Below are positions 2,165 through 53,311 of a stretch of 64,000 nucleotides of DNA, piece by piece. Under the pieces are notes generated by a model, which was not told the DNA's origin, did not search any database, and saw only the letters and a list, made by a program, of their open reading frames with translations. The stretch's first letter is position 1. The number at the start of each line of letters is the position of its first letter. The stretch spans positions 1 to 64,000 of the IMG/VR virus record IMGVR_UViG_3300047553_000733; one strand, written 5' to 3'. A program made the translations under genes and the position numbers. The DNA is from a virus.

Positions 2165-2196
2165 GCTAGCGCGGTTTAGGGTCAAAAAATTCTGAC

Positions 2197-2225
2197 TTGA
2201 ATTGAGACCCTAAATCCTATATAAT
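2197..2225 (+). promoter_or_regulatory. sigma70 promoter for ncRNA-1
   Basis: TTGAAT-17-TATAAT; GACCCTAAA motif in the spacer and an inverted copy upstream. Confidence 0.75.
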
Positions 2226-2232
2226 AGATATA

Positions 2233-2409
2233 TCGCAGTCGGGAAAGATAAACAAAATTAACCAGACCCATTACACCGCAAATCAGTCACTGTTAGTCGA
2301 CACACCTGTAATGCTCATGGTCTCTTTAATCCCAGTAGTCTGTTTGTTATAGCCACTACTTCAACCTAATAAAATCTTAGTAGTCCAGTGCTATTAACAA
2401 CGATTGCGA
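2233..2409 (+). ncRNA. candidate structured RNA, about 177 nt (ncRNA-1)
   Basis: Begins at predicted TSS; 5' TCGCAGTCG pairs with 3' CGATTGCGA; internal arms AGACC/CATTACA..TGTAATG/GGTCT and ATAGC/ACTACT..AGTAGT/GCTAT; no ORF. Confidence 0.6.
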
Positions 2410-2419
2410 AATTTTTTAC

Positions 2420-2449
2420 TTGAACTATAAAGCTGTTTTGTTATATAAT
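2420..2449 (+). promoter_or_regulatory. sigma70 promoter for ncRNA-2
   Basis: TTGAAC-18-TATAAT. Confidence 0.75.
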
Positions 2450-2630
2450 ATATTTATAGTTTGATGAAGGGTGTAAGCGGTCACCGAGCAAATCACGGTG
2501 ATACTACTTAATTGTTGGGAAGCTAATCGCCGAGCAACAGCCCGTTACAGTTTATGGGTGTTATGAGCCTGGCGTATTTGTCCAGATAACAACTTGATTG
2601 GTGGCGAAGCCTCTACCACCAGCCCCCTAA

Positions 2631-2732
2631 ACCCTCTGATGAGTGCCCTGCAATGGGCCGAAACTCTAAGCATCGTGTCTAGTTGCTGACAGACTTCAAA
2701 ACTGCCACCTAGATGCACCTTAGGGTCAGGGT
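2631..2732 (+). ncRNA. type I hammerhead ribozyme
   Basis: Stem I ACCCT/AGGGT; CTGATGA core; stem II G(T)GCCC/GGGCC; GAAA; stem III CTCTAAG/CTTAGGG; GUC cleavage triplet at 2725-2727. Confidence 0.85.
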
Positions 2733-3117
2733 ATGAACCCAGCACATTGGCCTGTGGCCGCTGGTAATAGTAATACCCAACCGCTTTAACACGGTCGGCG
2801 GGATACAAGTGGATTGTACTCCGGAGAAAGAACTCCTTAAAATACAGCCATCTTCTAACACAAGAGCCTCGGCAGAGGTAATGCAAGTCTGGAGTCTTGC
2901 TGGCGCTAGGTATGGTGTGAACATACCACAACGACCCTAAACTGCGGAGGGTGCGTATAATATATCCAGTCAGAGACAACTGCACTAAACCGCTAGCAAA
3001 TGCGACAACCTATGTTACCGCACGGATATCGCAAGCACTGGAACTGTAGCGACTGAAACGTGCGCGGCTCGCGAGCCACAAAAACACGCTGTTTAGCTAA
3101 ATCACTGTGACGTGTTC

Positions 3118-3153: not shown

Positions 3154-3267
3154 GTTTTGGTTTTTACAATTTAGGGTCCAAAATTTTAGCGCTGCTGCGC
3201 CAATTATACAGTGCTAAACCTTGTTTGTCAAGTGGATTTTCTTGAAACTGACCCTAAACCGCAAAAA

Positions 3268-3301: not shown

Positions 3302-3317
3302 GGCGTTATTGGGTGAG

Positions 3318-3635
3318 TTAAGTGCAATTGCCTTGGTTTAGGGTCAGTTTTCGTTCCAACAAAACCAGCACCCCTTTGTTTACCTTCTCCAAGCTCTCCA
3401 GTTGGTCGCTGGGGACGTCCAGAAGCTCAGCAAGGCGTTCGATATGCTCCGATTTTTTCACTGGCAGCTCACCACGCTTGTTGAGGTACTGTTTTTTCTG
3501 GTACACGCCCAGACTGCTCAGCTTAGCAATTATGCTACGTTCAGGTACTTCCAGCTCAACTGCAAGCTGCGTTACTGGTATACCGCCTTTATAGTCCTTG
3601 ATCAATTTATCTGTTACTTCTTTTGTGTATTTCAT
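3318..3635 (-). CDS. T5 A2-like DNA-binding protein (paralogue 3)
   Basis: MKYTKEVT...LAVELEVPERSIIAKLSSLGVYQKK...LESLEKVNK aligns with the other two paralogues. Confidence 0.7.
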   Translation of the reverse strand: MKYTKEVTDKLIKDYKGGIPVTQLAVELEVPERSIIAKLSSLGVYQKKQYLNKRGELPVKKSEHIERLAELLDVPSDQLESLEKVNKGVLVLLERKLTLNQGNCT

Positions 3636-4411
3636 AGCCATGGCATTGCAAATGTATCTTGTTTAGGTTGTGTTTGTTCAGGTACTGTAAAAATCTCACT
3701 AGTAACTAGTGGTTCGGGCATCAAATCCCAGTTAATGGGATCTAAGATCATGTATTTAGTGCGCTTGCTGGGGTGTGCTATCCAGATTTGAGTAAGCATC
3801 GACTGTGTTAACTTGGGGAGTGTGCCTAGCTTGGTATGCTGAATGCCTGTTAGTGCCCAAGTACTTTCGGCAGGCTTCAATTCACCTGCCTTCTTGCCCG
3901 ATTTATTCATCAAGCCTTCACTTCTGATTGCCAGCAACTCCTCTGACCCTAAATCGCCAACAACTTGCAGTTGCTCCGCACTCAAGTTCACTGCCTCCAA
4001 GAGTTTAGGTTCTAGTAAGTACTCCAAGTGTTTTAGACCCTGCCAGCTCCCATAAGGTACGTCTTTGTAGAGCTTAAACCCCATTAGTATAAGTGGGGTA
4101 AACTGTGCGTACTGGGGGTGTTGTGTTTGGCTGGGCAGTAGTAATGACCTGGTAACCCTGCTGAGCTTCCACAACCCCTGCAGTTTAGGGTCCTGGCCAA
4201 CGTTGTGCTTGAGCGTGGCTAAAATATCCCAACGATCGCCAGAGTCTTTGACCAGCTTCCAGGTGCCAAAGTGTGCAACCAGCTGTGGCAGCAACCATTG
4301 GTGAAGTGGGGCAATATGCTCCTGTTTGATCCATTGCTCCAGCTCTACTTGACTCATGCTATTTATTGTGCTTAGTGGCAGTTCAAATATGTCTTGCTTT
4401 TTTAATATCAT
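3632..4411 (-). CDS. hypothetical protein (about 259 aa), coupled to A2 paralogue 3
   Basis: Long ORF; stop overlaps next start (ATGA); leftward promoter at about 4612-4642. Confidence 0.75.
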   Translation of the reverse strand: MILKKQDIFELPLSTINSMSQVELEQWIKQEHIAPLHQWLLPQLVAHFGTWKLVKDSGDRWDILATLKHNVGQDPKLQGLWKLSRVTRSLLLPSQTQHPQYAQFTPLILMGFKLYKDVPYGSWQGLKHLEYLLEPKLLEAVNLSAEQLQVVGDLGSEELLAIRSEGLMNKSGKKAGELKPAESTWALTGIQHTKLGTLPKLTQSMLTQIWIAHPSKRTKYMILDPINWDLMPEPLVTSEIFTVPEQTQPKQDTFAMPWL

Positions 4412-4457: not shown

Positions 4458-4585
4458 AGTTGCACTTAGCCTTTGGTCTTTGACCCTAAACTTACAAAAA
4501 TTGCTGTAATTAAGGGGCCCTCGTGTATCGTCCCTTATTACTAGCATTTTGTGTTGTTTAGGTCAACAACCACGGCTGTGCAACT
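4458..4585 (-). other. about 128-nt rod-like imperfect hairpin in the 5' leader
   Basis: Nested pairings AGTTGCAC/GTGCAACT, AGCC/GGCT, TTGACC(C)TAAAC/GTTTAGGTCAA, ACAAAA/TTTTGT, TAAGGG/CCCTTA. Confidence 0.65.
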
Positions 4586-4716: not shown

Positions 4717-5361
4717 TTAATCCCAGAGTGCCTGGTAGTACTTGCCAAACAGTTTAAATCCTTGTTGCTTTCTGTGTTCCCAGTGGTTGTGAGCCTCACT
4801 ATCATGCTTGATCTGGTAGATTTGCTGGTTTAGCTCTGCTTTAGGGTCAACCTCACTGTGGTCATAGAACTGGTCTTGACTGTCCGCGTTTTGGTGCTGT
4901 TCAAAAGCCCAGATCATTTCGTCGATAACATACTCCCAGCGTTGGTGCCAGAACTCGTCTGTATCCCACTCATTCTCCTTAGGCTTTGCGTGTGTACTCC
5001 ACAGGTGTTGTGGACAGTCAAAGTCGTCTACCTTAGGGCTGCCGTGCTTGGTAGCTTTCAGTTGACGGAGCATTGGCAGGATAATGATGCTCAGGGTATG
5101 ATCCATTGACCAGGTGTCGTACTTGTCAATACGCACATACTCTTGGCGCTTACGCTTCTTATCCAACCAGTTTAGGAACTTGGTAAGCTTGCTATCACTG
5201 CCGTCCTTGTTCTCTGCTAGCCAAGTGCCGAAGTTGTGCACCCAGTCTTTGTGTCTGGGAAAGCCCACTTCGTCCTTGACTTTTGGACTCCAAAAACACA
5301 GTAGTTCAGCAATTTGATAAGGCCCCCACCAAGTTTTGTAGGGTCCAATGATAACTTTCAT
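4717..5361 (-). CDS. phage hypothetical protein
   Basis: 214 aa ORF with DTWSMD and GFKLFGKYYQALWD motifs, in a tight operon. Confidence 0.8.
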   Translation of the reverse strand: MKVIIGPYKTWWGPYQIAELLCFWSPKVKDEVGFPRHKDWVHNFGTWLAENKDGSDSKLTKFLNWLDKKRKRQEYVRIDKYDTWSMDHTLSIIILPMLRQLKATKHGSPKVDDFDCPQHLWSTHAKPKENEWDTDEFWHQRWEYVIDEMIWAFEQHQNADSQDQFYDHSEVDPKAELNQQIYQIKHDSEAHNHWEHRKQQGFKLFGKYYQALWD

Positions 5362-6493: not shown

Positions 6494-6494
6494 G

Positions 6495-9902: not shown

Positions 9903-10146
9903 TGACCCTGAACCGCAGTAGTTGCAAGAAACAACTCAAATTGCTTTAAAATTCTGCATCGAAGCCAAGGCCAGCAAGCTGCGGCGGGACAGCTAGAATG
10001 AATGTAGCGTAATTCCCATTGCTGTGGGGTGCTACCGACCCTACCTAAGGGTAGGGTCACTCAAGCTAATCAATAGTGGTTGGCTTGATTGACCCTAAAC
10101 CGCGGTGCCCTATGGGGCCGCACTAGTTTGCCTAAAAGGAAACGCA
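9903..10146 (+). promoter_or_regulatory. structured 5' leader of hsp20 (possible thermometer/ncRNA)
   Basis: Series of hairpins; last (GTTT-GCCT-AAA-AGGA-AAC) covers the RBS; two motif copies. Confidence 0.45.
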
Positions 10147-13813: not shown

Positions 13814-14792
13814 ACGGATCGGCTTTGCGTGTAAAATTCAAAGTGAACACGACAAAGCAGACCCTAAACTGAATACAAAAACAACTACACTAACTTGGTT
13901 AAATAACCAAACACGCGACAAAGCTGTTGAGAAACTGTGGATGGTGATGGAGCACAATGCTCAAGCACTAAAGCAACAACTCAACTGGGTAGGGAAACAG
14001 CCCAAGGGTCAGCGTATGTTTCGACTTAGCAGTGACCTGTGTCCTGCATATACTCACGACGACTGGACATGGTGGTACTTTGAACCAGATGTTCAGCGAT
14101 ACATGGAAAAACACTACGGCGAGATTGGTGAACTCATCCGTACACACGATATCAAGGCCAGCTTTCACCCAGGCCAATTTTGCGTACTAGCATCGGAGCA
14201 TGATGGAATTGTTGATAACAGCGTGGCTGAGTTTGAGTATCATTGCGACCTCATCCGCTACATGGGTTTTGGTAAGTCATTTCAAGACTTTAAGTGCAAT
14301 GTTCACATCGGCGGTAAGCGCGGACCTGACGGAATTAAAGCTGCTCTAAAAAAGCTGAGTCGCGAAGCACGAAACACTATCACCATTGAAAATGCTGAGT
14401 ACACATGGGGTCTTGACGCTAGCCTAGAGCTTGCACAAGACTGTGCACTGGTGCTTGACATACATCACCACTGGATTAATACCGGAGAATATATAAGTGC
14501 AGACAATCCTAAACTTCAACCCATTTGGGATAGCTGGCGCGGAGTTAGGCCTACCATTCACTACTCTGTCAGCCGTGAAGATTGCTTGGTCGACCACGAC
14601 CCAACAACAAAACCCGATCTGGCAGAACTCAAGCGTATGGGCTTTACCAGTGCAAAACTTCGCGCACACAGCGACTACTACTGGAACTCAGAAGTAAATA
14701 AATGGGCCTTGACTTTCTTAGACAAAGCTGATATAATGTGTGAATCAAAACAAAAGAACTTGGCAAGCAGCGAGCTTGCCAAGCTTTTGTAA
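13794..14792 (+). CDS. uvsE: UV damage endonuclease (UvsE/UVDE)
   Basis: RIGFACK, FRLSSD, HPGQF, TIEN, LVLDIHHH, AHSDY, DIMCESKQK. Confidence 0.9.
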   Translation: MFDQQIKRIGFACKIQSEHDKADPKLNTKTTTLTWLNNQTRDKAVEKLWMVMEHNAQALKQQLNWVGKQPKGQRMFRLSSDLCPAYTHDDWTWWYFEPDVQRYMEKHYGEIGELIRTHDIKASFHPGQFCVLASEHDGIVDNSVAEFEYHCDLIRYMGFGKSFQDFKCNVHIGGKRGPDGIKAALKKLSREARNTITIENAEYTWGLDASLELAQDCALVLDIHHHWINTGEYISADNPKLQPIWDSWRGVRPTIHYSVSREDCLVDHDPTTKPDLAELKRMGFTSAKLRAHSDYYWNSEVNKWALTFLDKADIMCESKQKNLASSELAKLL

Positions 14793-14879: not shown

Positions 14880-15060
14880 TTTAGTTTGTGTGTTGCTAGA
14901 ACACCGATTCGGTTCGGGGCTTTGCAATCCTGAGACCACAGACACCTAGGAAGGTTTGTGGGTATGGTTTGACCCTAAGCATAGGCCAGTGTCGCGAACT
15001 GGGTAAACTTAGGGCACTGGCTTAGCGGCTAGGGTAGTAAAGAGCGCACAAACTAAATGG
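14877..15060 (+). ncRNA. stem-closed multibranch RNA between tRNA-Pro and tRNA-Ala
   Basis: CCATTTAGTTTGTG/CACAAACTAAATGG terminal stem; at least 4 internal hairpins. Confidence 0.55.
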
Positions 15061-22967: not shown

Positions 22968-22996
22968 TTGACCCTAAGCCGTCAAACTTGTATAAT
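22968..22996 (+). promoter_or_regulatory. sigma70 promoter overlapping TGACCCTAAG motif
   Basis: TTGACC-17-TATAAT. Confidence 0.7.
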
Positions 22997-23555: not shown

Positions 23556-23930
23556 ATGGCTACAACTACACAGTGGACTGACGAACTCAAGGCTAAGGTT
23601 ATTGAGATGTATGAGGGTGCAGGCCCTACACCCGAGTCCAGTACTGAAATCATCAAAGACATTGCTGAAGAAATCGAAATGTCACCCAATGGCGTACGCA
23701 TGGTGCTTGTGCAAGCTGGCGTATATGTCAAGAAAGACCCCGGTGCTAGTTCCGGTGGCACTAAGACCAAGACCCCTAGTGGCGAAGGCAGCAAGCGTGT
23801 TAGCAAAGAGTCTAGCATCGCAGAACTACGTGCGGCTATTGAAGCCAAGGGCGCACCTATTGATGAAGATATTCTAAGCAAACTTACTGGCAAAGCTGCC
23901 GTATACCTGCTTAGCGTTATCAAGGCTTAA
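23556..23930 (+). CDS. D3: T5 D3-like protein
   Basis: TQWTDEL, SPNGVRM..AGVYVKK, KLTGKAA match T5 D3. Confidence 0.9.
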   Translation: MATTTQWTDELKAKVIEMYEGAGPTPESSTEIIKDIAEEIEMSPNGVRMVLVQAGVYVKKDPGASSGGTKTKTPSGEGSKRVSKESSIAELRAAIEAKGAPIDEDILSKLTGKAAVYLLSVIKA

Positions 23931-24158: not shown

Positions 24159-24774
24159 ACGAAAACGCAGCGAACTAGAAGAAGAATTGATGACAGATGC
24201 AAATATTGCACGAGTTATCCGTCTACTAGAACCTGTGGAAGAAGGTGCAAAACCTATTACAAAAAAAGATGCTTGTCAAATTCTGGGTATGAGTTATAAT
24301 ACTACTCGTCTTGGAACTATTATTCAACAGTACAAAGATAAGCAAGCACGCGATAAAAAGTTTCGCGCTGAAAAACGCGGCAAGCCGCTTACCAACGACG
24401 AGCTAACTTATATTATCAGTGAGTATCTAGCTGGCGAACCTATTGATGGTATTAGCAAAAGCATTTATCGTAGTCCAGGATTTGTAAAACAAGTTTTGGA
24501 AGACTACAGTGTACCAATTCGTGTACCTGGTCACAGCTACTTTAGTCCGCAACTAATTCCTGAAGGTGCAGTGCGTGACCGATTTAAAGTTGGAGAGGTA
24601 GTGTACAGTGCTAGATATGACACACTAGCCAAGATTACTAGCGAGAAACAAGACCCTAAACATGGGTGGATTTATTCAATGTGGCTTCGTGGTAACTGGC
24701 AACAAAACGCATACCAGCCAGCGTATGAATTGGCCAGTCTAGAGCACTTGCGTGCAGTAGGGGTAACAATATGA
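24151..24774 (+). CDS. D2: T5 D2-like DNA-binding protein
   Basis: TKKDACQILG, KRG, YRS..VKQVLE, YELASLEHL match T5 D2. Confidence 0.85.
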   Translation: MAKRKRSELEEELMTDANIARVIRLLEPVEEGAKPITKKDACQILGMSYNTTRLGTIIQQYKDKQARDKKFRAEKRGKPLTNDELTYIISEYLAGEPIDGISKSIYRSPGFVKQVLEDYSVPIRVPGHSYFSPQLIPEGAVRDRFKVGEVVYSARYDTLAKITSEKQDPKHGWIYSMWLRGNWQQNAYQPAYELASLEHLRAVGVTI

Positions 24775-26127: not shown

Positions 26128-26889
26128 ATGAGAATCACAATACCAACTGAATGTCCTTGCTGTAGTTACAAATTAGAACTGGTCAATGATCAGCTCTACT
26201 GTCGCAACACAGCCTGCGGTGCTCAGCTTAGTAAAAAAGTCGAGCACTTCTGCAAGACTCTTGGCATTAAGGGTATGGGTTCTCGCACAATTGAAAAACT
26301 CGGCTTAGCAGATATTACAGAGCTGTATTATCTCGAACCCGAAGAAGTTACCAGTCAGCTTAGTAGTGAGAAAGTGGCCACAAAGCTACTCGAAGAAATT
26401 GATAAGAGTCGCAGTGCTGATCTAGCCACTGTACTCAGTTCATTTTCAATACCACTGGTAGGTCAAACTGCAAGCAAGAAATTGTGTGAAGTAGTAGCAT
26501 CTGTAGACGAGATCAGTTTCGAGACTTGCAAGCAGGCCGGGTTGGGCGACAAAGTTACAGAAAACTTGCTCACCTGGCTAGAGACTGATTTCCAAGAGAT
26601 GAGAGAGTTCTTGCCTTTCTCGTTTCGTAGTGAAAGAGTTAGTGGTGTAAACAGCAATGCAAAAACTGTTTGTATCACTGGCAAATTAAATTCTTATAAA
26701 ACTAAAACCGAAGCACACAAAGCATTGGAGTCTGCAGGATTCAAACCTGTAGAGTCTGTAACAAAAACAACAGACTATTTAGTAGACGAAGAAGATAAAG
26801 GTAGCGCAAAACGCAAAAAAGCCGAGTCTCTCGGTATTACAATAATCACAAACTTAAATACTTTCTTGAAAGAAATTAGAAATGACTGA
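26128..26889 (+). CDS. ligB: NAD-dependent DNA ligase, subunit B (Zn finger, HhH, BRCT)
   Basis: CPCC..C..C, HhH repeats, CITG..SVTKTTDYLV BRCT; T5 split ligase. Confidence 0.9.
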   Translation: MRITIPTECPCCSYKLELVNDQLYCRNTACGAQLSKKVEHFCKTLGIKGMGSRTIEKLGLADITELYYLEPEEVTSQLSSEKVATKLLEEIDKSRSADLATVLSSFSIPLVGQTASKKLCEVVASVDEISFETCKQAGLGDKVTENLLTWLETDFQEMREFLPFSFRSERVSGVNSNAKTVCITGKLNSYKTKTEAHKALESAGFKPVESVTKTTDYLVDEEDKGSAKRKKAESLGITIITNLNTFLKEIRND

Positions 26890-27634
26890 AAAAGCTAAAA
26901 AGTGGTCCGATTCCGCTGTTAACACATTGATGGGCGTTATTGGTAGTCAGCGTCCAGTAAGCGCTGAAACCGTAGAACGTGCTGCACAAGCACTTGGCGC
27001 AGACTTTACTGCCCGTAGCGTTGCTAGCAAGTTGCGTCAACTCGAAGTTGAAGTAACTAGCATGGCTAAAGAAAAGACAAGCGCATTCACCGAAGATGAA
27101 GGTGCTAGCCTTGCTGAGTTCGTTATCAGCAACAACGGCAATCTCACATATAAGCAGATTGCTGAACAGTTTGCTGGTGGTAAGTTTACTGCCAAGCAAA
27201 TCCAAGGTAAATTGCTTGCCCTTGAACTGACTGGTAGCGTTAAGCCTGCCGAAAAGGTTGAAGTTGCTCGTACTTATACCGATGCAGAAGAAAGCAAGTT
27301 CGTACAGATGGCTGAAGCCGGTAGCTTTATCGAAGATATTGCTAGCGCACTTAACAAGACTGTTGCCAGTGTTCGCGGTAAGGCATTGAGCCTAACTCGT
27401 AAGGGTCAAATCGCTAAGATTCCAGCACAGCGCGTTAGCCATGCTAAGGAACAAGTTGACCCCGTTACTGCTCTAGGCGATCGTATTCACGGCATGACCG
27501 TGGCTGAAATTGCCAAGGCTGTTGACAAGACTGAGCGTGGTCTTCGCACTCTGCTAACTCGTCGTGGCATCAAGGTTGCCGATTACGACGGAGCTGCTAA
27601 GAAGGCTAAGGCAGAAGCAAAAGCTGCTGCCTAA
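26882..27634 (+). CDS. D5: T5 D5-like DNA-binding protein
   Basis: TARSVASKLR, QIQGKLLALE, DYDGAAKKAK match T5 D5. Confidence 0.95.
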   Translation: MTEKAKKWSDSAVNTLMGVIGSQRPVSAETVERAAQALGADFTARSVASKLRQLEVEVTSMAKEKTSAFTEDEGASLAEFVISNNGNLTYKQIAEQFAGGKFTAKQIQGKLLALELTGSVKPAEKVEVARTYTDAEESKFVQMAEAGSFIEDIASALNKTVASVRGKALSLTRKGQIAKIPAQRVSHAKEQVDPVTALGDRIHGMTVAEIAKAVDKTERGLRTLLTRRGIKVADYDGAAKKAKAEAKAAA

Positions 27635-34841: not shown

Positions 34842-35472
34842 TTTTAAACAAACCAAAGGCAAAGCAATCAAAAATACAGTTGAAGCATACGAATACAAAG
34901 ACGGTGAAAACACAGTTCGTTTGATTGGCGGAGTCCTACCACGATACATCTATTGGCTGAAGGGTACTAATAACAAGGATATTCCTGTTGAGTGCCTGGC
35001 TTTTAGTCGTGAAAAAGAAAAGTTTGATAATTTAGAAAAAGATCACGTCCAGGAATTCTTTCCAGATGCAAAATGCAGCTGGAGCTATAGCGTCAATTGT
35101 ATTGACCCTAAGGACGGTAAAGTTAAGGCACTAAATCTTAAGAAGAAACTGTTTGAGCAAATTCTAACAGCCGCTGAAGATTTGGGCGATCCTACGGATT
35201 ACGATACAGGCTGGGACGTAGTATTTAAGCGTACTAAGACAGGCCCATTAGCTTTCAATGTAGAATATACATTGCAAGTTTTACGTTGTAAAACACGTTC
35301 ATTAACTCCTGAAGAAAGGGAATTGGCAGATAAAGCTCAACCTATTGATGAGAAATTTGTACGTCCAACACCAGAGGAGGTTTTAGCGCTTTTAACTAAG
35401 ATTACTACTAATACAGAAGAAAGCGATGCTGCTGATACTTCAGAGCAAGAAGCTGTAAAAGAATTAGGCTAA
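34831..35472 (+). CDS. D11: T5 D11-like ssDNA-binding protein
   Basis: VLPRYIYW, LKKKLFEQI, KTGPLAFNVEY, acidic tail. Confidence 0.9.
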   Translation: MALSFKQTKGKAIKNTVEAYEYKDGENTVRLIGGVLPRYIYWLKGTNNKDIPVECLAFSREKEKFDNLEKDHVQEFFPDAKCSWSYSVNCIDPKDGKVKALNLKKKLFEQILTAAEDLGDPTDYDTGWDVVFKRTKTGPLAFNVEYTLQVLRCKTRSLTPEERELADKAQPIDEKFVRPTPEEVLALLTKITTNTEESDAADTSEQEAVKELG

Positions 35473-35533: not shown

Positions 35534-36493
35534 ATGAAAATTTTATTTACAGCAGATATACACATAAAACTGGGGCAGAAGAATGTTCCAGTGGAGTGGG
35601 CAAAAAATCGCTATGACTTATTGTGGAAAGAGTTTGAGCGTTGCCAAGAACAGGCAGATGTGTTTATTATAGGTGGTGATGTTTTTGACAAACTACCTAA
35701 TATGGAGGAATTAGAAGTATATTTTGATTTAATTAATCATTGTACTATTCCTACTATAATTTATAGTGGCAATCATGAAGCTATCAAGAAAAATACGACT
35801 TTCATGTCTAATCTTGCAAAAGCCACTAACAAAATGAATAAAAACGTAATAGTTATTGATGACTATTATAGCGACTACGGCATAGAGTTTGTTCCTTACA
35901 ACAAACTAAAAGACTTTGAGCAAGGTAACTATCCGTGGCCAGAGGGCGGCCAAATACTGTGTACTCATGTTCGTGGCGAGATCCCGCCACACGTTCAAGC
36001 AGAAGTAGATTTGAATATTTTTAAAGACTGGGACGTAGTTCTAGCAGGTGATCTTCACAGTTATGAAAACTCGCAACTTAATATTCTGTATCCAGGCAGT
36101 CCTGTTACCACTAGCTTTCATAGGCATCCCGTGGACACTGGAGTTATCTTGTTTGATAACGATACTATGGATCATACTTGGATCAAACTCAAAGTACCAC
36201 AACTTATCAGAAAAACAGTAGGTGTAAGTGACCCTAAACCGCCAACTGACTACGATCACACAATCTATCAGGTTGAAGGTGATATGCAAGAATTGGGTGG
36301 ATTAGAGGATAGCGAATTAATTGATCGCAAAGTATTAAAGCGAGAAACAGATACTGCGCTATTACTAGACAAAGATATGAGTCTAAATGAAGAAGTAAGC
36401 GAATATTTACGATACATACTTCAATTACCAGACGGCACTATTGAACAAGCATTACAGGAATTACAGAATTATGCAGATAAAATCGAACAGTGA
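35534..36493 (+). CDS. D12: SbcD/Mre11-like nuclease (T5 D12)
   Basis: ADIHIKLGQ, GGDVFD, GNHE, GDLH, YPGSP. Confidence 0.95.
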   Translation: MKILFTADIHIKLGQKNVPVEWAKNRYDLLWKEFERCQEQADVFIIGGDVFDKLPNMEELEVYFDLINHCTIPTIIYSGNHEAIKKNTTFMSNLAKATNKMNKNVIVIDDYYSDYGIEFVPYNKLKDFEQGNYPWPEGGQILCTHVRGEIPPHVQAEVDLNIFKDWDVVLAGDLHSYENSQLNILYPGSPVTTSFHRHPVDTGVILFDNDTMDHTWIKLKVPQLIRKTVGVSDPKPPTDYDHTIYQVEGDMQELGGLEDSELIDRKVLKRETDTALLLDKDMSLNEEVSEYLRYILQLPDGTIEQALQELQNYADKIEQ

Positions 36494-38867: not shown

Positions 38868-39319
38868 TGGTAGATAGCAGAGCAAAAGGTGCTCGCACAG
38901 AAACAGTTGCTAGAGATATGTTGCGTAAACATACCAAGCTAAGTTGGGAAAGAGTGCCAGGAAGTGGTGCTCTTGACCCTAAACATCAGCTAAAGGGCGA
39001 CTTGTACGTGCCTGGCATGACAAACTTATTTGCTGTAGAAGTAAAGGGTTATGCCGAGGATCACCTAACATCCCAAGTATTAACAGCAAAAAACCCACAA
39101 CTTATTGAGTTTTGGAAACAGACATATAGACAAGCCTGTCAAGTAAATAAACATCCACTGCTAATCTTTAAATTTGACAGATCTAAGTTATTTGTTGCGT
39201 TTGAAGATTTACCTACTAGTAATTATAGATTTTTGTGTGTAAGTTGTGATGGGCATGAATTTTTTGTGGCGCTACTCGAAGATTGGCTTGAACACGAGAA
39301 AACACAATTTGTGTCTTGA
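38867..39319 (+). CDS. D14: Holliday-junction resolvase-like nuclease (T5 D14)
   Basis: DSRAKGAR, RVPGSGA, KGD, EVK. Confidence 0.9.
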   Translation: MVDSRAKGARTETVARDMLRKHTKLSWERVPGSGALDPKHQLKGDLYVPGMTNLFAVEVKGYAEDHLTSQVLTAKNPQLIEFWKQTYRQACQVNKHPLLIFKFDRSKLFVAFEDLPTSNYRFLCVSCDGHEFFVALLEDWLEHEKTQFVS

Positions 39320-43519: not shown

Positions 43520-44200
43520 CTAATTTCTATATGCTAAAATAATTTCTTTGCATAGCTTGCTGCGAACAATATCTTCGTCAACAAATCTAACAATATCTAC
43601 CCCTTGTATAGACCCTAATCTATTAACGGCATCTGTTAAACCGCTGTTGGGTATATCACACTGATCTGTATCACCACTGATAATCATTTTGCAATTTTTG
43701 CCAATGCGTGATAAAATCATTTTCATCTCTTCTCGTGTAGCATTTTGTGCTTCGTCTAGCAAAACTACGCAATTATCAAAAGTAGTGCCGCGCATAAACC
43801 CTAGTGGTTTAGGCTCTATGTTTTTGTTTTTAAGTGCATACTCGTAAAAACCTTTGCCAAGACTTTTCGTAAAAATATTGTCAAAAGGTTCTAAATACGG
43901 AGCATACTTTTCCTCAAGTGTACCAGGTAAAAATCCTAAACCACGACCTGTTTCTATATTTGGCCTAGTTAGTATAATCTTCTGTATGCGTCTGTGAAAT
44001 AATTCACTTGCTGCATAAAGTGCTGCTATATATGTTTTACCGGTACCTGCACTACCTACACCAAATATTATTTGATTTTCATGTATTGCACGTAAATATT
44101 CGTGCTGAATATAGTTTAAAGGCTTTACTTCTTGAAATCCATATTCAACTGGATTATCTGGTGTATTATTTACTCGTCTTGCTTTTTTACCACTAGCCAT
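43520..44200 (-). CDS. phoH: PhoH-family ATPase
   Basis: GSAGTGKT, GFLPG, MRGTTF, DEAQN, DIVRS. Confidence 0.95.
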   Translation of the reverse strand: MASGKKARRVNNTPDNPVEYGFQEVKPLNYIQHEYLRAIHENQIIFGVGSAGTGKTYIAALYAASELFHRRIQKIILTRPNIETGRGLGFLPGTLEEKYAPYLEPFDNIFTKSLGKGFYEYALKNKNIEPKPLGFMRGTTFDNCVVLLDEAQNATREEMKMILSRIGKNCKMIISGDTDQCDIPNSGLTDAVNRLGSIQGVDIVRFVDEDIVRSKLCKEIILAYRN

Positions 44201-49911: not shown

Positions 49912-49926
49912 TTCTGCCCCCTTTAT

Positions 49927-50541
49927 TTAAGCACCAAATACGTGTAGCGCGTGCTCGTAGTGTTTTTGTCTATCTTCTAATCCGATAGTACCGCCGTTAA
50001 TTCGTTTTGTTAATGTTACGATGTCACCACGATCTGCCCACTGATTTAGGTTATTTGTTTCCCAGAACCAGCATGCACTCTGTGCTGCACCCTCAAAAGT
50101 TTCCATATACTCACTAGCTTCTTCAGGGCTAATGCCTAAACTGGCTGCAAACCAGCTGTAATTGTCACGACCAGTTACCTGTATTAATCCGCGACCACAA
50201 AACCTCCAACCATCTCCGCTGGCCTCATCACCATTGCCCATGCGATTAGCATATACTCTGTTAGCAATCCTTTGTGGCTGCTTTTCGTATTGCTGCGCCA
50301 ATGCGTCCGTTTGAAAATACTTGGGAAAAGTTTTTCGTAGGGACTGCCACTTATAGTTTAGATTCTCTTTGATAAAAACAAAATTACCCGACTCATGAGC
50401 ACACTGTGCTAAAAAAGCTGCTAATCGTTGCGGAGTGTCAATTTGGTACTGCGGCAGCAATTGTTCCAGTGCATTGAACCAATATTGTGTATACTGATTT
50501 TTAGGTATAATTTGTTGTAAGTGTTGTAATTCTAATTCCAC
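49927..50541 (-). CDS. endolysin, glycoside hydrolase family 19
   Basis: FLAQCAHES, ENLNY, IANRVY, GRGLIQVTGRDNY, RINGG. Confidence 0.95.
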   Translation of the reverse strand: MELELQHLQQIIPKNQYTQYWFNALEQLLPQYQIDTPQRLAAFLAQCAHESGNFVFIKENLNYKWQSLRKTFPKYFQTDALAQQYEKQPQRIANRVYANRMGNGDEASGDGWRFCGRGLIQVTGRDNYSWFAASLGISPEEASEYMETFEGAAQSACWFWETNNLNQWADRGDIVTLTKRINGGTIGLEDRQKHYEHALHVFGA

Positions 50542-50801
50542 TACTTTAACTCCTTGTAAATATTTTGTTGTGTTTTGTACCACTCTTGCCAGCCATGTAC
50601 TAACACACTACACTGATAGTGTTTTGTATAATTTTCTACAACTACTTTTGTTAAGTCTACTAAGCTGGCCTCTTTAGCTACTTCTTTAAGCTGCTCGCAT
50701 TGTTGCATTAACACATCAGGTGCTTGCGGAAATTTTTGAGTAACTGGCACAGTAGTACTGCAACCAGTTAGTAGTAATAAAATAAGGACAATATACTTCA
50801 T
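50541..50801 (-). CDS. o-spanin (Rz1-like lipoprotein)
   Basis: LLTGC lipobox; adjacent to endolysin. Confidence 0.8.
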   Translation of the reverse strand: MKYIVLILLLLTGCSTTVPVTQKFPQAPDVLMQQCEQLKEVAKEASLVDLTKVVVENYTKHYQCSVLVHGWQEWYKTQQNIYKELK

Positions 50802-51229
50802 GGTTTTGCTGCCTTATTTATTGTGGTAACTACCTCATCAGGTAATTTAGGACATTGTTCAATATACTTGACTACTTCTTGATTTTTTACAACTTCACGG
50901 TCTATATACTTTATAATGTCTTCACCACGCTCTTTTACGATTTGTTTTTTAGTGATTACTTTTTCAACTATTTTAACATTTTCCTCAGCGCTTTTAGCTT
51001 CTAAAGTTTTTACTTGTAGTTCTAAGGCGTGTGTACGCTTACGCCATGCATCATCATTGGCCTGCATTCCTAGCATGTACACACTTAAAAATACTATGGC
51101 TATAGACGCCCACTTAAAAGTGCTACTATATGGTAAAACCTTTAGTGTACTGGACACTAGATATAGTACAATGCCTAAAAAGAAAGTTAATTGAAATATC
51201 CACGAAGGTAAAAAATTAAATATCCACAC
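50798..51229 (-). CDS. i-spanin (Rz-like)
   Basis: TM segments plus coiled coil; precedes the lipoprotein. Confidence 0.7.
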   Translation of the reverse strand: MWIFNFLPSWIFQLTFFLGIVLYLVSSTLKVLPYSSTFKWASIAIVFLSVYMLGMQANDDAWRKRTHALELQVKTLEAKSAEENVKIVEKVITKKQIVKERGEDIIKYIDREVVKNQEVVKYIEQCPKLPDEVVTTINKAAKP

Positions 51230-51268
51230 TAAAATGCCTCCGGTAGTACTGAAAGTATTTCTTCCACG

Positions 51269-51958
51269 TCACTCCACCAATTCTGGAAATAAGTCTTTAT
51301 GTATAAAATCATGTACCATTTCCTCTGTAAATCCTAAAGCCTGCAACACTTTAGGTGTGTGCGGGTTTTGTTTTTGTTGCTGACAGTAAAAATTTTGGTG
51401 CTTGGTGTAGTTATACTCACGCACTAAGTCATCATAACTTTTAGGTGGTCTGCTATACATTATATTATCCAAGTAGTACACCAACAACTCTTTACTTAAG
51501 TCTAATATTTCTACTAACTCAAACTCAGTATTAATGTTACCAGCTGCAACCATCTTATCACTAAATATCTTTTTAGCCCAGTCTGGCAGTACTCTAGGTT
51601 TTGACCACTCATAGCGGCTAACTTTATCACTAAAGTACTGATTAAACTTGTGCTCGGGATCAACAGGGCTAAAGTCTAAGAAAGCTCCTGTAACTTTATT
51701 TGGGCCAGCAACAAGGTCAAAACCAAATATTGGTGCACCGTCAAAAATATGCGGAAATACACATAGGTGCATCATCCACAGTTTCTTTGTTTCTGTAGCG
51801 TCTATTATGTCTAAGTGCATGCGTCTTGCAAGTGCACTACTATAAACTTGGTTAGTCCAGTTATAGGTGTTTGTTTCAGGCAGTAAAAAGGCCCGTGAGC
51901 TTAAAACTTTTTCAAGTTCTAGCGCATGGGCCTTTAACCTATTAAAGATTATACTCAT
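51269..51958 (-). CDS. ferredoxin-dependent bilin reductase (PcyA/PcyX-like)
   Basis: RRMHLD, MMHLCVFP, PIFGFDLVAG..GAFLDFSP, LPDWAKKIFS, YCQQQKQNPHT. Confidence 0.85.
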   Translation of the reverse strand: MSIIFNRLKAHALELEKVLSSRAFLLPETNTYNWTNQVYSSALARRMHLDIIDATETKKLWMMHLCVFPHIFDGAPIFGFDLVAGPNKVTGAFLDFSPVDPEHKFNQYFSDKVSRYEWSKPRVLPDWAKKIFSDKMVAAGNINTEFELVEILDLSKELLVYYLDNIMYSRPPKSYDDLVREYNYTKHQNFYCQQQKQNPHTPKVLQALGFTEEMVHDFIHKDLFPELVE

Positions 51959-52463
51959 CTGCAATCCTGCTAAACAGGTGCAAGGTTAACTCAAAGCATT
52001 TATTTGCTTCACTAGCCATGCTAACATCCAATTTAGTCCTTAATAGTTGTATTAATTCTTGACGATTTTGAAACTGGTACATTGCTCCGCTACCAGGTAC
52101 TTTGCTTTTTATTATCTGACCACCGTATAAATCACCCATATGTTTGGTATATATGTGTGCCCATAAACCGTGATCAGTTAAACACTTTACGTGTCTGCAG
52201 TATTCTGCGGTACTGTCAAATATAATTACTGGCTCGTCTAATTCCAGTAAGTCTTGCAGTATGTACTCACTGCGTTGTATGCCTGGCAAATCTTGTAACA
52301 AATGGTCTGCACAGTGCTCTAGTACTTGATATTGTAGCAACTGATTTGCTAAGTAAGTGGCGTATATGCCGCTAGTAATTTTTCCACCAAGTAGTAGTTG
52401 TGTAAACTTGTGATTTTCTGCAATTTCGTGGTTGTGATGTGTTAATTCTTTTAATGTTGACAT
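51942..52463 (-). CDS. heme oxygenase
   Basis: LKELT..H..AE, AHIYTKHMGDLYGGQII, EANKCF. Confidence 0.9.
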   Translation of the reverse strand: MSTLKELTHHNHEIAENHKFTQLLLGGKITSGIYATYLANQLLQYQVLEHCADHLLQDLPGIQRSEYILQDLLELDEPVIIFDSTAEYCRHVKCLTDHGLWAHIYTKHMGDLYGGQIIKSKVPGSGAMYQFQNRQELIQLLRTKLDVSMASEANKCFELTLHLFSRIADEYNL

Positions 52464-53311
52464 ACATACTCATGTGGTTGTATAAATTTATAGTCGCCTA
52501 TAAGATTTGTTCGCAGCTTTGTTAAATCTGCTTTGCTATAGTATTGATACTTTCCGCGCAACTCGTTGGGCATATCAATCCTGTGCGAGTTATCTGTGTA
52601 CAGTCTAGCAATTTCTAAAAAGCTTGTAGCTACACCAGACCCTAAATTGTAGATGCCTGGGTGTTTGTTGGTATAATTAACCATGACGTTTACTACATCG
52701 TCAACGCACACAAAGTCTCGTAGTATTTTTTCACTGCCATGAAACAGTGTAACTATACCTTCCTGCTCAACCTGTTCTTTAAACTTGCTGATTGGGCTTT
52801 GCTGTGCACCTTTGTGCTGTTCGCCACTGCCGTAGACATTGAATGGTCTGAATACCCAGGTATTTGGCATGCTGGCAACCACCTCACTCAACTGTTTGGA
52901 CACTGCATACGGATTGAGTGGATCTAGCTTGTCAGTTTCACAGAATGTTTCGCTATTGCCATATACACTAGCGCTGCTTGTGTATACCAGAGGTATTTGC
53001 TTCAGCTGACAAAATTCTGACCAGCTAAGGGTATGGGTATAGTTATAGTTAAGCAGTCGTTTGCCATCCGTTTCTGTGGTGCTGGAAATCCCGCCACAGT
53101 GAAATACCTTGCATATGTCCAGCTTTAGCAACTCAGTCCAGTTTATATTGTCTAAATCACGGTAGGCCAAAAACTTTAGTGTTTTTAGGGTCATCAACTT
53201 GCTGGCATCACTACAATCATCAACAATTAATATATTTTCTATGCCTTGCTTATTAAGCAACTTGACCAAGTTACTACCAATAAAACCAGCACCGCCTGTT
53301 ACGACATACAT
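52451..53311 (-). CDS. hldD: ADP-L-glycero-D-manno-heptose-6-epimerase-like
   Basis: VTGGAGFIGSNLV, SSTTE, SSASVYG, YAVSK, YQYYSKADLTKLR. Confidence 0.85.
   Translation of the reverse strand: MYVVTGGAGFIGSNLVKLLNKQGIENILIVDDCSDASKLMTLKTLKFLAYRDLDNINWTELLKLDICKVFHCGGISSTTETDGKRLLNYNYTHTLSWSEFCQLKQIPLVYTSSASVYGNSETFCETDKLDPLNPYAVSKQLSEVVASMPNTWVFRPFNVYGSGEQHKGAQQSPISKFKEQVEQEGIVTLFHGSEKILRDFVCVDDVVNVMVNYTNKHPGIYNLGSGVATSFLEIARLYTDNSHRIDMPNELRGKYQYYSKADLTKLRTNLIGDYKFIQPHEYVCQH

What the first reader, a model, noticed from the sequence alone, without database searches (positions are those of the whole stretch)
2171..53193. Dispersed motif TGACCCTAAACCGC, concentrated around the ncRNA/A2 locus
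Seen: exact 14-mers at 2171-2184 (minus), 3249-3262, 10090-10103 and 36229-36242, and one-mismatch copies at 3944 and 9903. The core GACCCTAAA occurs at least 17 times by eye (plus: 2206, 2933, 3250, 3945, 4482, 10091, 13860, 24652, 36230, 38975, 52638; minus: 2175, 3170, 3337, 4184, 4840, 53184). A rough hand estimate at about 40% GC expects fewer than one. Ten of the 17 lie in 2.1-4.9 kb. Copies sit in promoter spacers (2206; GACCCTAAG at 22970), leaders and several coding frames (DPK, TL, LGS), so codon usage does not explain it. Inference: binding site of a phage protein, or a nicking/entry/packaging signal analogous to T5's programmed nicks; occurrence on both strands favours a binding site.
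Basis: partly seen in the sequence, partly recalled or inferred. Interest (0 to 1): 0.78.

Follow-up and report, generated by a model that had tools for sequence, protein, structure and literature searches.

The report
Conserved DNA box array, T5-like phage
A 22-base DNA word with core GACCCTAAA is by far the most over-represented word of this uncultured freshwater T5-like phage and of about 60 relatives; it is packed in alternating orientation around strong host-type promoters at the end of the early gene block, so it is most likely the docking site of a still unidentified DNA-binding regulator.

Summary
GACCCTAAA occurs 17 times in the window, against 0.36 expected. GACCCTAA occurs 23 times in the 102-kb genome and is its most over-represented word. 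Eleven copies lie at 2.17-4.85 kb on strictly alternating strands. The word is the core of an asymmetric 22-nt box, tCTGACCCTAAAC(C/T)GcAgcAA.y. The box is kept in about 58 of 62 related IMG/VR phages, always between the third and fourth small A2/D5-family HTH genes and around a conserved 259-aa protein of unknown fold. Many copies sit in fixed registers to sigma-70-type promoters. A synonymous-codon shuffle still leaves a 3-4-fold coding excess. However, the dispersed coding copies are not conserved at orthologous codons, and their sense-strand polarity is what codon constraints predict. I read it as the binding box of a sequence-specific protein that controls early promoters (confidence 0.5). 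The binder is not identified: box-poor relatives keep all six A2/D5-family proteins with unchanged recognition helices. Inversion, mobile cassettes, Chi-like polarity and T5-type single-strand nick sites are not supported. Injection-stop, packaging and origin roles remain open. The scan found this motif before in related genomes (e1-3298891 and others). I found nothing on it in the papers I could search.

The parts
2175..2183 (-). Box copy 1 of the cluster (exact 14-mer 2171-2184). It lies 7 nt after the stop of the A2_3 gene, just upstream of the -35 of promoter P1, and points away from it.
2206..2214 (+). Box copy 2, inside the 17-nt spacer of promoter P1 (-35 TTGAAT 2197-2202, -10 TATAAT 2220-2225).
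2719..2727 (-). Box copy 3 (GACCCTAAG variant), inside the abundant ncRNA. On the + strand it reads CUUAGGGUC, the proposed hammerhead cut site noted by another first-reader entry.
2933..2941 (+). Box copy 4, in the -35 position of a TATAAT at 2956-2961. It is the start of a 60-nt block (2930-2990) conserved in relatives.
3170..3178 (-). Box copy 5. It lies just after the bidirectional terminator 3117-3154 and about 25 nt downstream of the -10 of the minus-strand promoter.
3203..3231 (-). Perfect consensus sigma-70 promoter (TTGACA-17-TATAAT) bracketed by box copies 5 and 6. It is the most conserved non-coding patch of the cluster (39 HSPs among 62 relatives).
3250..3258 (+). Box copy 6 (exact 14-mer 3249-3262), 18 nt upstream of the -35 of the minus-strand promoter and pointing away from it. 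The same arrangement occurs in L150, L177 and L190 and is missing in box-poor L203.
3337..3345 (-). Box copy 7, in the last codons of the A2_4 gene. It is conserved in relatives but read as DPK in some and TLN in others.
3945..3953 (+). Box copy 8, antisense inside the 259-aa gene (LGS). It is kept in G003 and G009.
4184..4192 (-). Box copy 9, sense inside the 259-aa gene (DPK).
4482..4490 (+). Box copy 10, about 70 nt upstream of the start of the 259-aa gene, in its leader. The position is conserved in relatives (about -85 to -66 from the start).
4840..4848 (-). Box copy 11, sense (DPK) near the 3' end of gene 4717-5361 (phrog_11543).
9904..9912 (+). Near copy (GACCCTGAA; 14-mer with one mismatch at 9903-9916) in the divergent region between the minus block and the long plus block.
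10091..10099 (+). Dispersed copy (exact 14-mer) about 60 nt before the likely start of the Hsp20 gene, at the head of the long plus-strand block.
13860..13868 (+). Dispersed coding copy (DPK) in the UvdE-like endonuclease gene. It is not conserved in orthologues.
14971..14979 (+). Dispersed copy (GACCCTAAG) between tRNA-Pro and tRNA-Ala. It is the 5' arm of a hairpin closed by CTTAGGGC; similar sites occur in G001, G002 and G006.
22970..22978 (+). Dispersed copy (GACCCTAAG) forming the -35 (TTGACC) of a promoter with TATAAT at 22991-22996. The promoter stands ahead of the operon that holds the full-length A2 orthologue.
24652..24660 (+). Dispersed coding copy (DPK) in a helicase-family gene. 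It is not conserved in orthologues.
35104..35112 (+). Dispersed coding copy (GACCCTAAG, DPK) in the SSB gene. The peptide is conserved but the synonymous sites vary among relatives.
36230..36238 (+). Dispersed coding copy (exact 14-mer, DPKP) in the SbcD-like gene. It is kept in G009 and differs by one synonymous change in G002.
38975..38983 (+). Dispersed coding copy (DPK) in the RusA-like gene. The peptide is kept in G002 and G006, but with other codons.
43611..43618 (+). Dispersed 8-mer copy (GACCCTAAT), antisense in the PhoH-like gene.
52638..52646 (+). Dispersed copy, antisense (LGS) in gene 52451-53311.
53184..53192 (-). Dispersed copy, sense (TLK frame) in gene 52451-53311.
786..1238 (+). 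A2_2, a small A2/D5-family HTH paralogue.
1856..2164 (+). A2_3, a small A2/D5-family HTH paralogue and the last gene of the early block. The cluster starts 7 nt after its stop.
3318..3641 (-). A2_4, the best conserved small HTH paralogue (46-81% identity across the loci, most at 61-78%). It always follows the 259-aa gene and lies inside the box cluster.
3632..4411 (-). Conserved 259-aa protein of unknown family. It is all-alpha (model pLDDT 80), has no match among solved structures and has no homologue in cultured phages.
23556..23930 (+). Full-length orthologue of T5 A2 (phrog_1725, E 9e-26), a candidate binder.
26882..27634 (+). Orthologue of T5 D5 (phrog_323, E 5e-38), a candidate binder.

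Best explanation
The word is the invariant core of a 22-nt, asymmetric, double-stranded DNA box, tCTGACCCTAAAC(C/T)GcAgcAA.y. A sequence-specific DNA-binding protein recognises it, most likely a conserved phage-encoded regulator made early in infection. The dense array lies in the convergent, largely non-coding zone where the early block (four small A2-family genes, SprT-like genes, a kinase-like gene) meets the leftward block. There the boxes bracket or overlap strong host-type (sigma-70) promoters in a few fixed registers. One register is just upstream of the -35, pointing away; the others are over the -35 or in the spacer, pointing downstream. Inverted pairs therefore clamp the promoter core. 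Occupancy would switch these promoters and their abundant non-coding RNAs off, or insulate them, when the programme moves on. Single boxes at the heads of other transcription units would tie those units into the same switch. Shown: the box, its conservation, its placement and its registers. Inferred: that a protein binds it, that the protein is phage-encoded, and the direction of regulation.
For: (1) Enrichment: 17 copies vs 0.36 expected in the window, and the top word of the genome. (2) Information extends over 22 nt, with CTG at -2..0 and C(T/C)G at +9..+11, one helical turn apart. This is based on 361 non-redundant contexts and looks like a protein footprint rather than a coding or compositional effect. 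(3) DNA-level conservation: the box occurs 5-12 times per 12-kb locus in about 58 of 62 relatives, while the neighbouring 259-aa protein falls to 32-35% identity. The copy at the 3' end of A2_4 is kept but read in two different frames. (4) Positions relative to the 259-aa gene are conserved (about -85, +213, +453, +1085, +1140, +1255, +1440, +1640, +1920). (5) Promoter registers in 360 contexts: -10 hexamers start at +13 (17 vs 2.2 background) and at +21..+23 (19 vs 6.7). Divergent -35 hexamers lie at -26/-24/-18/-17 (48 vs about 8.5). In the window, P1 and the consensus minus-strand promoter 3231-3203 are each bracketed by an inverted pair. (6) The box-poor relative L203 keeps the same promoter without the flanking box, so the box is an accessory element and not part of the promoter. 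(7) Variant arms of inverted pairs do not covary in general (4 with the same variant vs 48 without). This argues for independent recognition of each box rather than base-pairing. (8) Coding copies exceed a synonymous-shuffle null in box-rich genomes (G000 13 vs 2.9, G006 13 vs 3.0) but hardly in box-poor ones (G009 4 vs 2.2, G005 5 vs 2.4). Coding copies also carry the flanking box positions.
Against: No binder is identified. G005 (6 copies in 104 kb), L191 and L203 have lost nearly all boxes. They keep the 259-aa protein, all four small paralogues, full-length A2 and D5, with the same putative recognition helices. So there is no protein-motif covariation. Dispersed coding copies turn over quickly and are not held at synonymous sites, which is odd for site-specific operators. 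Spacing between the two boxes that bracket a promoter varies (13, 18 or 21 nt to the -35), so no rigid geometry is evident. At promoter P1 the two arms do change together in some lineages (L194 TGAGGGTCA/TGACCCTCA; G009 group GGGGAGAAGAA/TTCTTCTCCCC), which would fit a hairpin at that one place. About half of the intergenic copies are in no recognisable promoter register.
Confidence: 0.5

Rival explanations
1. The box is the site of a conserved host DNA-binding protein that the phage exploits on its first-expressed DNA. One example would be a winged-helix response regulator binding two direct half-sites one helical turn apart.
For: The core is invariant across a phage clade whose own proteins have diverged to about a third identity. 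The box-poor genome G005 keeps every candidate phage binder but lacks recognisable homologues of the large tail proteins shared by the box-rich genomes, so it may infect another host. The CTG-N8-C(T/C)G layout with an A-rich linker resembles direct-repeat boxes such as the Pho box (own knowledge, a lead only). The cluster lies in the region transcribed by unmodified host polymerase (consensus promoters).
Against: The host is unknown, and no host genome could be scanned. The two half-sites are very unequal. No known bacterial box of this sequence turned up in a full-text search. Loss in a few lineages is explained equally well by loss of an unidentified phage gene.
Confidence: 0.18
2. The array is a DNA-transaction signal at the inner edge of the first-entering or terminally repeated DNA. 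It would be the counterpart of the T5 injection-stop region, or a terminase or replication-origin recognition array.
For: The phage has a T5-type gene set (split NAD ligase, DnaB-type helicase, PolA, D5, A2, SbcCD, flap-type exonuclease, 20 tRNAs). The cluster is a 1.15-kb gene-poor zone at the end of the early block that begins next to terS/terL. In T5 the 1.2-kb untranslated Repeat Region 3, the iss candidate, ends the left terminal repeat (10.1101/866236; annotation). One or two boxes lie 100-150 nt upstream of terS in several relatives.
Against: The physical ends are unknown. The complete relatives assemble as circles with 123-127-nt overlaps, and contig break points are scattered. The T5 terminal repeat holds no copy of the word, and the cluster here has no DnaA-box array. 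The box upstream of terS sits in an optional insertion that is absent in G000, L009, L049 and L097. Box-poor relatives with the same genome plan exist.
Confidence: 0.17
3. The copies act at the RNA level. Inverted neighbours would form stems in the abundant non-coding RNAs and in 3' ends, one copy would supply a ribozyme cut site, and sense copies in mRNAs would pair with antisense copies in the ncRNA.
For: Strands alternate perfectly over 11 copies, and 253 of 339 neighbouring pairs in 46 loci are opposite. RNA contigs from three metatranscriptomes of two studies cover 2659-3104 at 165-4100x against 2-10x for the flanks. Copies 2719 and 2933 lie in that RNA and are complementary over 8 nt. 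At P1 both arms change together in L194 and in the G009 group.
Against: In general, variant arms do not covary (4 vs 48). The same 22-nt asymmetric flank is kept on every copy, which pairing does not require. Several partners are separated by terminators (3117-3154, 3270-3300), so they would not be in one transcript. Rfam found no hammerhead or other family here at E up to 1.
Confidence: 0.08
4. The dispersed copies are a polar, strand-reading signal, such as Chi-like protection from the host exonuclease, a translocase guide, or T5-type nick sites. On this reading the cluster would mark where the polarity flips.
For: In nine genomes nearly all dispersed copies (about 108 of 112) read away from the cluster on both sides, and the strand switches roughly opposite to it. 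Positions are not conserved but numbers are, as for Chi.
Against: The synonymous-shuffle null already predicts about 95% sense-strand copies (2.8 vs 0.13), because the antisense reading needs rare codons or a stop. Antisense copies outside the cluster are, if anything, more enriched than sense copies (about 5 vs 0.4 in three genomes). Gene direction and position cannot be separated. T5/BF23 nicks are confined to one strand (PMC10644984), unlike these copies.
Confidence: 0.05

Closest known systems
Untranslated Repeat Region 3 / injection stop signal (iss) of phage T5 and its relatives (Davison, bioRxiv 10.1101/866236; NC_005859 misc_feature 9140-10149)
   Same: Both are gene-poor zones of about 1.2 kb, full of short repeats in both orientations. 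Both lie at the far end of the first-expressed gene block of a T5-type genome that encodes A2-family DNA-binding proteins. Both are highly conserved within their clade while neighbouring ORFs drift, and neither has a known function.
   Different: No sequence is shared: the T5 terminal repeat has 0 copies of the word. The T5 region is built from several long repeat families and eight paired DnaA boxes. Here a single 22-nt box is reused, no DnaA-box array is present, and the box also occurs throughout the genome. Whether this cluster lies at a terminal-repeat boundary is unknown.
Multi-operator arrays of phage regulators that bracket promoters (own knowledge: lambda CI/Cro at OL/OR; dispersed protein boxes in N15 and P1-type phages)
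   Same: Both have repeated copies of one short box concentrated in a regulatory zone. The boxes overlap the -35 or the spacer, or flank the core promoter, and are conserved across relatives.
   Different: The box here is asymmetric and directional rather than a palindrome, and the spacing to the promoters is variable. Extra copies are scattered in coding DNA, and the binder is unknown.
Activator boxes that replace or abut the -35 element (own knowledge: MotA box of T4 middle promoters; Pho box)
   Same: Both are asymmetric boxes co-oriented with transcription. A subset of copies here sits exactly where a -35 hexamer should be (22970, 2933), and the layout is a direct repeat with 11-nt periodicity.
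   Different: Only about 5% of copies are in that register and most are not. The promoters concerned have good -35 and -10 elements of their own, and no MotA/AsiA-like genes were seen.
Nick-associated words of T5-like and other phages with localised single-strand interruptions
   Same: Both are short words dispersed through a T5-type genome, inside genes and between them.
   Different: T5/BF23 nicks are in one strand only (PMC10644984). Here the copies lie on both strands, alternate within the cluster and concentrate at promoters.

Membership tests
T5-type injection stop signal / Repeat Region 3 | Lies at the inner end of the long left terminal repeat (the first-step-transfer DNA) | not testable with these tools
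   The physical ends are unknown. G000 is 'linear' with its break inside the early block. The complete relatives close as circles with 123-127-nt overlaps.
T5-type injection stop signal / Repeat Region 3 | Gene-free, repeat-dense stretch of about 1.2 kb following the pre-early genes | tested here: met
   2165-3317 holds no credible ORF and six box copies. It follows the early block in at least 14 relatives.
T5-type injection stop signal / Repeat Region 3 | Paired DnaA boxes in the conserved IRD'-spacer-IRC' arrangement | tested here: not met
   No TT(A/T)TNCACA match lies between 1 and 8154 in G000.
T5-type injection stop signal / Repeat Region 3 | Sequence similarity to the T5 repeat families | tested here: not met
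   There are 0 copies of GACCCTAA, ACCCTAA or CCCTAAA in T5 1-11500, and no megablast or blastn match to cultured phages in this region.
Operator / protein-binding box array | Sequence-specific conservation beyond what coding or composition gives | tested here: met
Operator / protein-binding box array | Fixed registers relative to promoters | tested here: met
   Peaks at +13, +21..+23 and -26..-17 in 360 non-redundant contexts. This covers only about a quarter of all copies.
Operator / protein-binding box array | A cognate binding protein that covaries with, or is lost together with, the box | tested here: not met
   Box-poor G005, L191 and L203 keep all A2/D5-family members and the 259-aa protein, with unchanged helices. 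No neighbouring gene tracks box presence.
Operator / protein-binding box array | Physical binding | not testable with these tools
   Needs EMSA, footprinting or DAP-seq.
T5-type nick sites | Confined to one DNA strand | tested here: not met
   There are 11 copies on the plus and 7 on the minus strand in G000, and they alternate in the cluster. The one-strand rule is taken from PMC10644984.
Chi / KOPS-like polar word | Strand bias beyond what gene orientation and codon constraints give | tested here: not met
   The null gives about 95% sense copies and about 96% are observed. Antisense copies are more enriched than sense copies.
Multiple-inversion system (shufflon-like) or mobile cassettes bounded by inverted repeats | Segments between inverted copies found inverted or transposed among relatives | tested here: not met
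   Every blastn HSP of the G000 cluster listed for the 62 related loci is collinear and in the same orientation.

The most novel reading that the evidence does not exclude
The box array is the functional counterpart of the unexplained T5 injection-stop / hand-over region in a large uncultured freshwater clade. One reusable 22-nt box would be bound by the expanded A2 family (four small paralogues plus A2 and D5). It would hold or mark the boundary of the first-entering DNA and silence its promoters and ncRNAs. If so, this clade would offer a much simpler system than T5 (one box, one protein family) for working out how two-step DNA transfer is controlled.
Probability: 0.13. Interest if true: 0.75.

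Novelty: new variant of a known kind. Interest (0 to 1): 0.5.

Why it matters
T5-type phages take over the cell with a first-entering gene block whose boundary region is conserved, repeat-rich and still unexplained after 40 years. This freshwater and estuarine clade of about 60 IMG/VR records has a comparably placed zone built from a single, sharply defined 22-nt box. The box also marks other promoters. That gives a simple handle (one oligonucleotide) for pulling out the regulator and mapping the early-to-middle switch. It also allows a test of whether A2-family proteins are sequence-specific. The negative results matter too. They show that sense-strand polarity of a dispersed word can be a pure by-product of coding constraints. 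They also show that gene adjacency is not evidence for who binds.

Tried and rejected
Each item below is a reading or search that led nowhere.

1. Inversion or shufflon, and mobile cassettes. The cluster is collinear in all relatives.

2. General hairpin model. Variant arms do not covary.

3. Chi/KOPS-like polarity. It is explained by the codon-aware null.

4. A fixed promoter element. There is no single distance to the -10, and the same promoter works without the box in L203.

5. DnaA-box or T5 repeat homology. None was found.

6. Rfam. There is no family in 2100-4750 at E up to 1, and in particular no hammerhead hit. A simple descriptor scan of five genomes found no hammerhead either and also missed the proposed one at 2631-2732, so it tests nothing. 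I did not pursue the ribozyme further.

7. The 259-aa protein. The model is confident (pLDDT 80), but Foldseek found nothing at E <= 0.001 and VIA-align gave a best Z of 4.4. tblastn of cultured phages found nothing for it or for A2_4.

8. T5 A2 against the small paralogues by BLASTP. There is no alignment. The link rests only on phrog_1725 and phrog_323 profiles.

9. Phylogenetic profiling against the one complete box-poor genome. It gave many absent genes (UvdE-like endonuclease, PhoH-like protein, small ORFs, tail genes) and no clear candidate.

10. Terminal branch length of A2_3. It tends to rise as box number falls across seven genomes, though not strictly. G005 keeps a box pair at P1 despite having the most diverged A2_3, so I do not rely on this.

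11. Host scan. It is not possible for a virus record.

12. Full-text search for the word. It returned only unrelated primers and telomere papers.

13. Laid runs were contigs only, so neither molecule ends nor nicks nor a terminal-repeat coverage step could be read.

Full report
OBSERVATION

Dinucleotide-preserving shuffles give 0.36 copies. The 14-mer TGACCCTAAACCGC is exact at four places and has one mismatch at two, as stated.

The window is the first 64 kb of a 102,184-bp IMG/VR virus record, with no close relative among cultured phages. In the whole record the 8-mer GACCCTAA occurs 23 times. Extensions of this word head the lists of over-represented 8-, 9- and 10-mers.

Eleven of the 23 copies lie between 2175 and 4848. 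Their strands alternate without exception: -,+,-,+,-,+,-,+,-,+,-. Ten of the 23 copies fall in the roughly 15% of the genome that my crude gene map leaves non-coding.

CODON-AWARE NULL AND THE DISPERSED COPIES

I permuted synonymous codons within each gene. This keeps every protein sequence and each gene's codon usage.

- G000 then expects 2.8 sense and 0.13 antisense copies of GACCCTAA in coding DNA; 10 and 3 are observed.
- Four related genomes give the same picture. Summed over G000-G004, 46 copies are observed against about 12 expected.
- The complete relative G006 has 13 against 3.0.
- Two relatives that have few copies overall show little or no excess: G009 4 vs 2.2, and G005 5 vs 2.4.

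So codon usage does not explain the word, but the coding excess is only 3-4-fold.

The same null explains a pattern that at first looked striking. In nine genomes almost all dispersed copies read away from the cluster on both sides. The null already predicts about 95% sense-strand copies, because the antisense reading needs rare codons or hits a stop. Genes are arranged in long co-oriented blocks. Antisense copies are, if anything, the more enriched class. I therefore see no evidence for a strand-reading signal.

Orthologue comparisons show that the dispersed coding copies of G000 are mostly lineage-specific. Where the DPK peptide is conserved (SSB, SbcD, RusA), the synonymous positions vary among relatives.

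THE BOX

From 361 non-redundant contexts taken from 62 related loci, the information extends from -3 to +19 around the core: tCTGACCCTAAAC(C/T)GcAgcAA.y. The box is asymmetric. CTG at -2..0 and C(T/C)G at +9..+11 lie one helical turn apart. That would suit two DNA-reading heads placed in tandem. Coding copies carry weaker versions of the same flanks.

WHAT THE GENOME IS, AND WHERE THE CLUSTER SITS

The phage has a T5-type gene set:

- split NAD-dependent ligase
- DnaB-type helicase and primase
- family-A polymerase
- D10-type helicase
- SbcCD
- a 5'-3' exonuclease
- 20 tRNAs
- a D5 orthologue (26882-27634)
- a full-length A2 orthologue (23556-23930, phrog_1725 E 9e-26)

T5 A2 itself is the archetype of phrog_1725.

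Four further small proteins share the same HTH-like segment (RS[IV][IV]AKLS..GVY). They hit the A2 and D5 profiles only weakly and have no BLASTP similarity to T5 A2.

tblastn against relatives shows a fixed order in at least 14 of them:

- terL and terS on one strand
- then, diverging from them, the early block: A2_1, SprT-like, kinase-like, a 232-aa protein, SprT-like, a 75-aa protein, A2_2, A2_3
- then the box cluster
- then, converging on it, A2_4 and a 259-aa protein

The G000 contig is broken inside the early block, so its ends are not informative.

The cluster therefore occupies the convergent junction between the early block and the next block. It includes 1.15 kb without a credible ORF (2165-3317). 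Metatranscriptome contigs from two studies cover 2659-3104 at 165-4100x, against 2-10x for the flanks. This zone therefore makes a very abundant non-coding RNA.

CONSERVATION

A profile of the 259-aa protein (A1) retrieved 66 IMG/VR loci. The pair of the 259-aa gene followed by A2_4 is present in all but a few of the most distant. GACCCTAA occurs 5-12 times per 12-kb locus in about 58 of 62, including loci where the 259-aa protein is only 32-35% identical.

Positions relative to that gene recur. In 46 loci, neighbouring copies are on opposite strands in 253 of 339 cases. These loci are related, so that count is not a probability.

The copy at the 3' end of A2_4 is kept throughout but is read as DPK in some phages and as TLN in others. 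This is direct evidence that the DNA word, not a peptide, is conserved.

The non-coding zone is collinear among relatives, with conserved patches and no inverted or transposed segment. That removes shufflon-like inversion and cassette mobility.

RELATION TO PROMOTERS

In the window:

- Copy 2206 lies in the spacer of P1 (TTGAAT-17-TATAAT, 2197-2225).
- Copy 2175 lies 13 nt upstream of its -35, pointing away.
- The perfect consensus promoter on the minus strand (3231-3203) has copy 3250 lying 18 nt upstream of its -35, pointing away, and copy 3170 about 25 nt downstream of its -10.
- The same upstream box is present at this promoter in L150, L177 and L190. It is absent in the box-poor L203, which keeps the promoter.
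- Copies 2933 and 22970 occupy the -35 position of a TATAAT.

Over 360 non-redundant contexts:

- -10-like hexamers peak at +13 (17 against a background of 2.2) and at +21 to +23 (19 against 6.7).
- Divergent -35-like hexamers peak at -26, -24, -18 and -17 (48 against about 8.5).

About a quarter of all copies, and a larger share of the intergenic ones, therefore sit in one of three registers. Inverted pairs that bracket a promoter core account for much of the strand alternation.

Upstream of terS, the box lies in an optional insertion between a conserved leader element and the promoter. G000 itself and several relatives lack this insertion.

WHO BINDS?

Adjacency points to the A2 family and the 259-aa protein, but the tests I could run do not confirm any of them.

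- Three lineages have lost nearly all boxes. These are G005/L183 (6 copies in 104 kb), L191 and L203. L185 has three copies of a variant, TGACCCTAC.
- All of them keep the 259-aa protein and A2_4, with an identical helix region.
- The complete G005 keeps all four small paralogues, full-length A2 and D5, with unchanged helices.
- No neighbouring gene tracks box presence.
- The 259-aa protein folds confidently into an all-alpha model with no informative structural neighbour.
- G005 also lacks recognisable homologues of the large tail proteins shared by the box-rich genomes. This is compatible with a different host, and hence with a host-encoded binder.

RNA-LEVEL READINGS

Inverted neighbours could pair, and one copy (2719) coincides with the cut site of a hammerhead proposed in another first-reader note. 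Rfam gave no hit, and I did not settle the ribozyme.

In general, variant arms of inverted pairs do not change together (4 cases with the same variant against 48 without). Every copy also keeps the same asymmetric flank. Both facts argue for recognition of each box rather than pairing.

P1 is an exception. In L194 and in the G009 group both arms changed together. A hairpin may matter at that one place.

COMPARISON WITH T5

T5 has a 1.2-kb untranslated, repeat-dense region at the inner end of its left terminal repeat. It is the candidate injection stop signal and is conserved in 25 relatives. It contains eight paired DnaA boxes, and its mode of action is unknown (10.1101/866236; annotation).

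The zone studied here resembles it in position relative to the early genes, in size and in being repeat-dense. It shares no sequence with it, has no DnaA-box array and reuses a single box. Whether it lies at a terminal-repeat boundary cannot be told, because the complete relatives assemble as circles.

T5 and BF23 nicks lie in one strand (PMC10644984). These copies do not.

EARLIER NOTES OF THIS SCAN

The same word was noted in several related genomes. One follow-up (e1-3298891) concluded that it is the core of a 22-bp box kept at fixed places and probably bound by A2-type proteins.

My independent analysis agrees on the box, its length, its fixed places and its alternation. It adds:

- the codon-aware null
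- the turnover of the dispersed copies
- the promoter registers
- the absence of protein-box covariation, which weakens the assignment to A2-type proteins

VERDICT

The feature is real, strongly non-random and clade-wide. It is most likely a protein-binding box array that controls early promoters at the end of the early block (confidence 0.5). Open alternatives are a host-factor site (0.18) and a DNA-entry, packaging or origin signal (0.17). As far as I could search, it is unpublished. I rate it as a new variant of a known kind of element.

Noticed in passing
window 2659-3104: RNA contigs from three metatranscriptomes of two studies cover this stretch at 165-4100x, against 2-10x for the flanks. 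It is therefore a very abundant non-coding RNA that ends at the terminator 3117-3154. A 60-nt block (2930-2990) recurs in RNA contigs of related phages with different flanks.
   Followed up: partly
window 2626-2732: The proposed hammerhead (another first-reader note) has its GUC cut site inside box copy 2719, and its 5' arm reads CCCUAAACCC. Its core region 2626-2670 is 82-84% identical in distant relatives. Rfam gives no hit at E up to 1.
   Followed up: partly
window 23556-23930: This is the real full-length orthologue of T5 A2 (phrog_1725 E 9e-26). It lies in the early replication block and not in the first-expressed block. The four small 'A2-like' genes are much more distant members of the family.
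   Followed up: partly
window 3632-4411: A 259-aa protein is conserved in 66 IMG/VR loci, always followed by A2_4. It has invariant W39, Q43, Y120, H213, R217, D224 and WD228-229 and a C-terminal PW. The model is a confident all-alpha fold with no match among solved structures, no Pfam or PHROG family and no homologue in cultured phages.
   Followed up: yes
window 763-865, 1313-1342, 1547-1576, 3203-3231; G000 98146-102184: The early block carries many perfect TTGACA-17/18-TATAAT promoters, several facing backwards. They share an extended -10 context, TATAATTTTGGCGC (5-9 copies), which is the second most repeated word of the region.
   Followed up: partly
L212 3147-3650 (G000 98146-98645) and relatives: A conserved leader lies upstream of terS: GGGGCGGTTAnTAGAC, a GC hairpin, GGATTTTT, AAGGTGCCAAATC, then the promoter ACTTGCC-17-TATAAT. 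Some relatives insert a box plus a CA-rich low-complexity tract there. G000 and L009 instead have an extra small Cys-rich ORF before terS.
   Followed up: partly
window 14971-15025; G001 5738; G002 3297; G006 100968: In the tRNA cluster the box-like GACCCTAAG is the 5' arm of a hairpin closed by CTTAGGGC 30-40 nt downstream. This is conserved in four genomes. It may be a tRNA-processing or tRNA-like element.
   Followed up: no
window 13794-14792: A UvdE-family (PF03851) endonuclease is 68-71% identical in the five box-carrying relatives compared (four box-rich ones and box-poor G009) and absent from the box-poor G005. This is a single contrast and so only a lead.
   Followed up: partly
L183 6722-6790: The box-poor relative carries four tandem 17-nt repeats (GCGCAAGTACAGCGTTA) just after its 259-aa gene. 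It also has palindromes built on TTGCGCCAA where other relatives have boxes.
   Followed up: no
window 1 / G000 102184: The contig ends fall between two genes that are adjacent in all relatives (the 232-aa gene and the SprT-like gene). The record is therefore a circularly closed or permuted assembly opened inside the early block, and its ends are not physical ends.
   Followed up: yes
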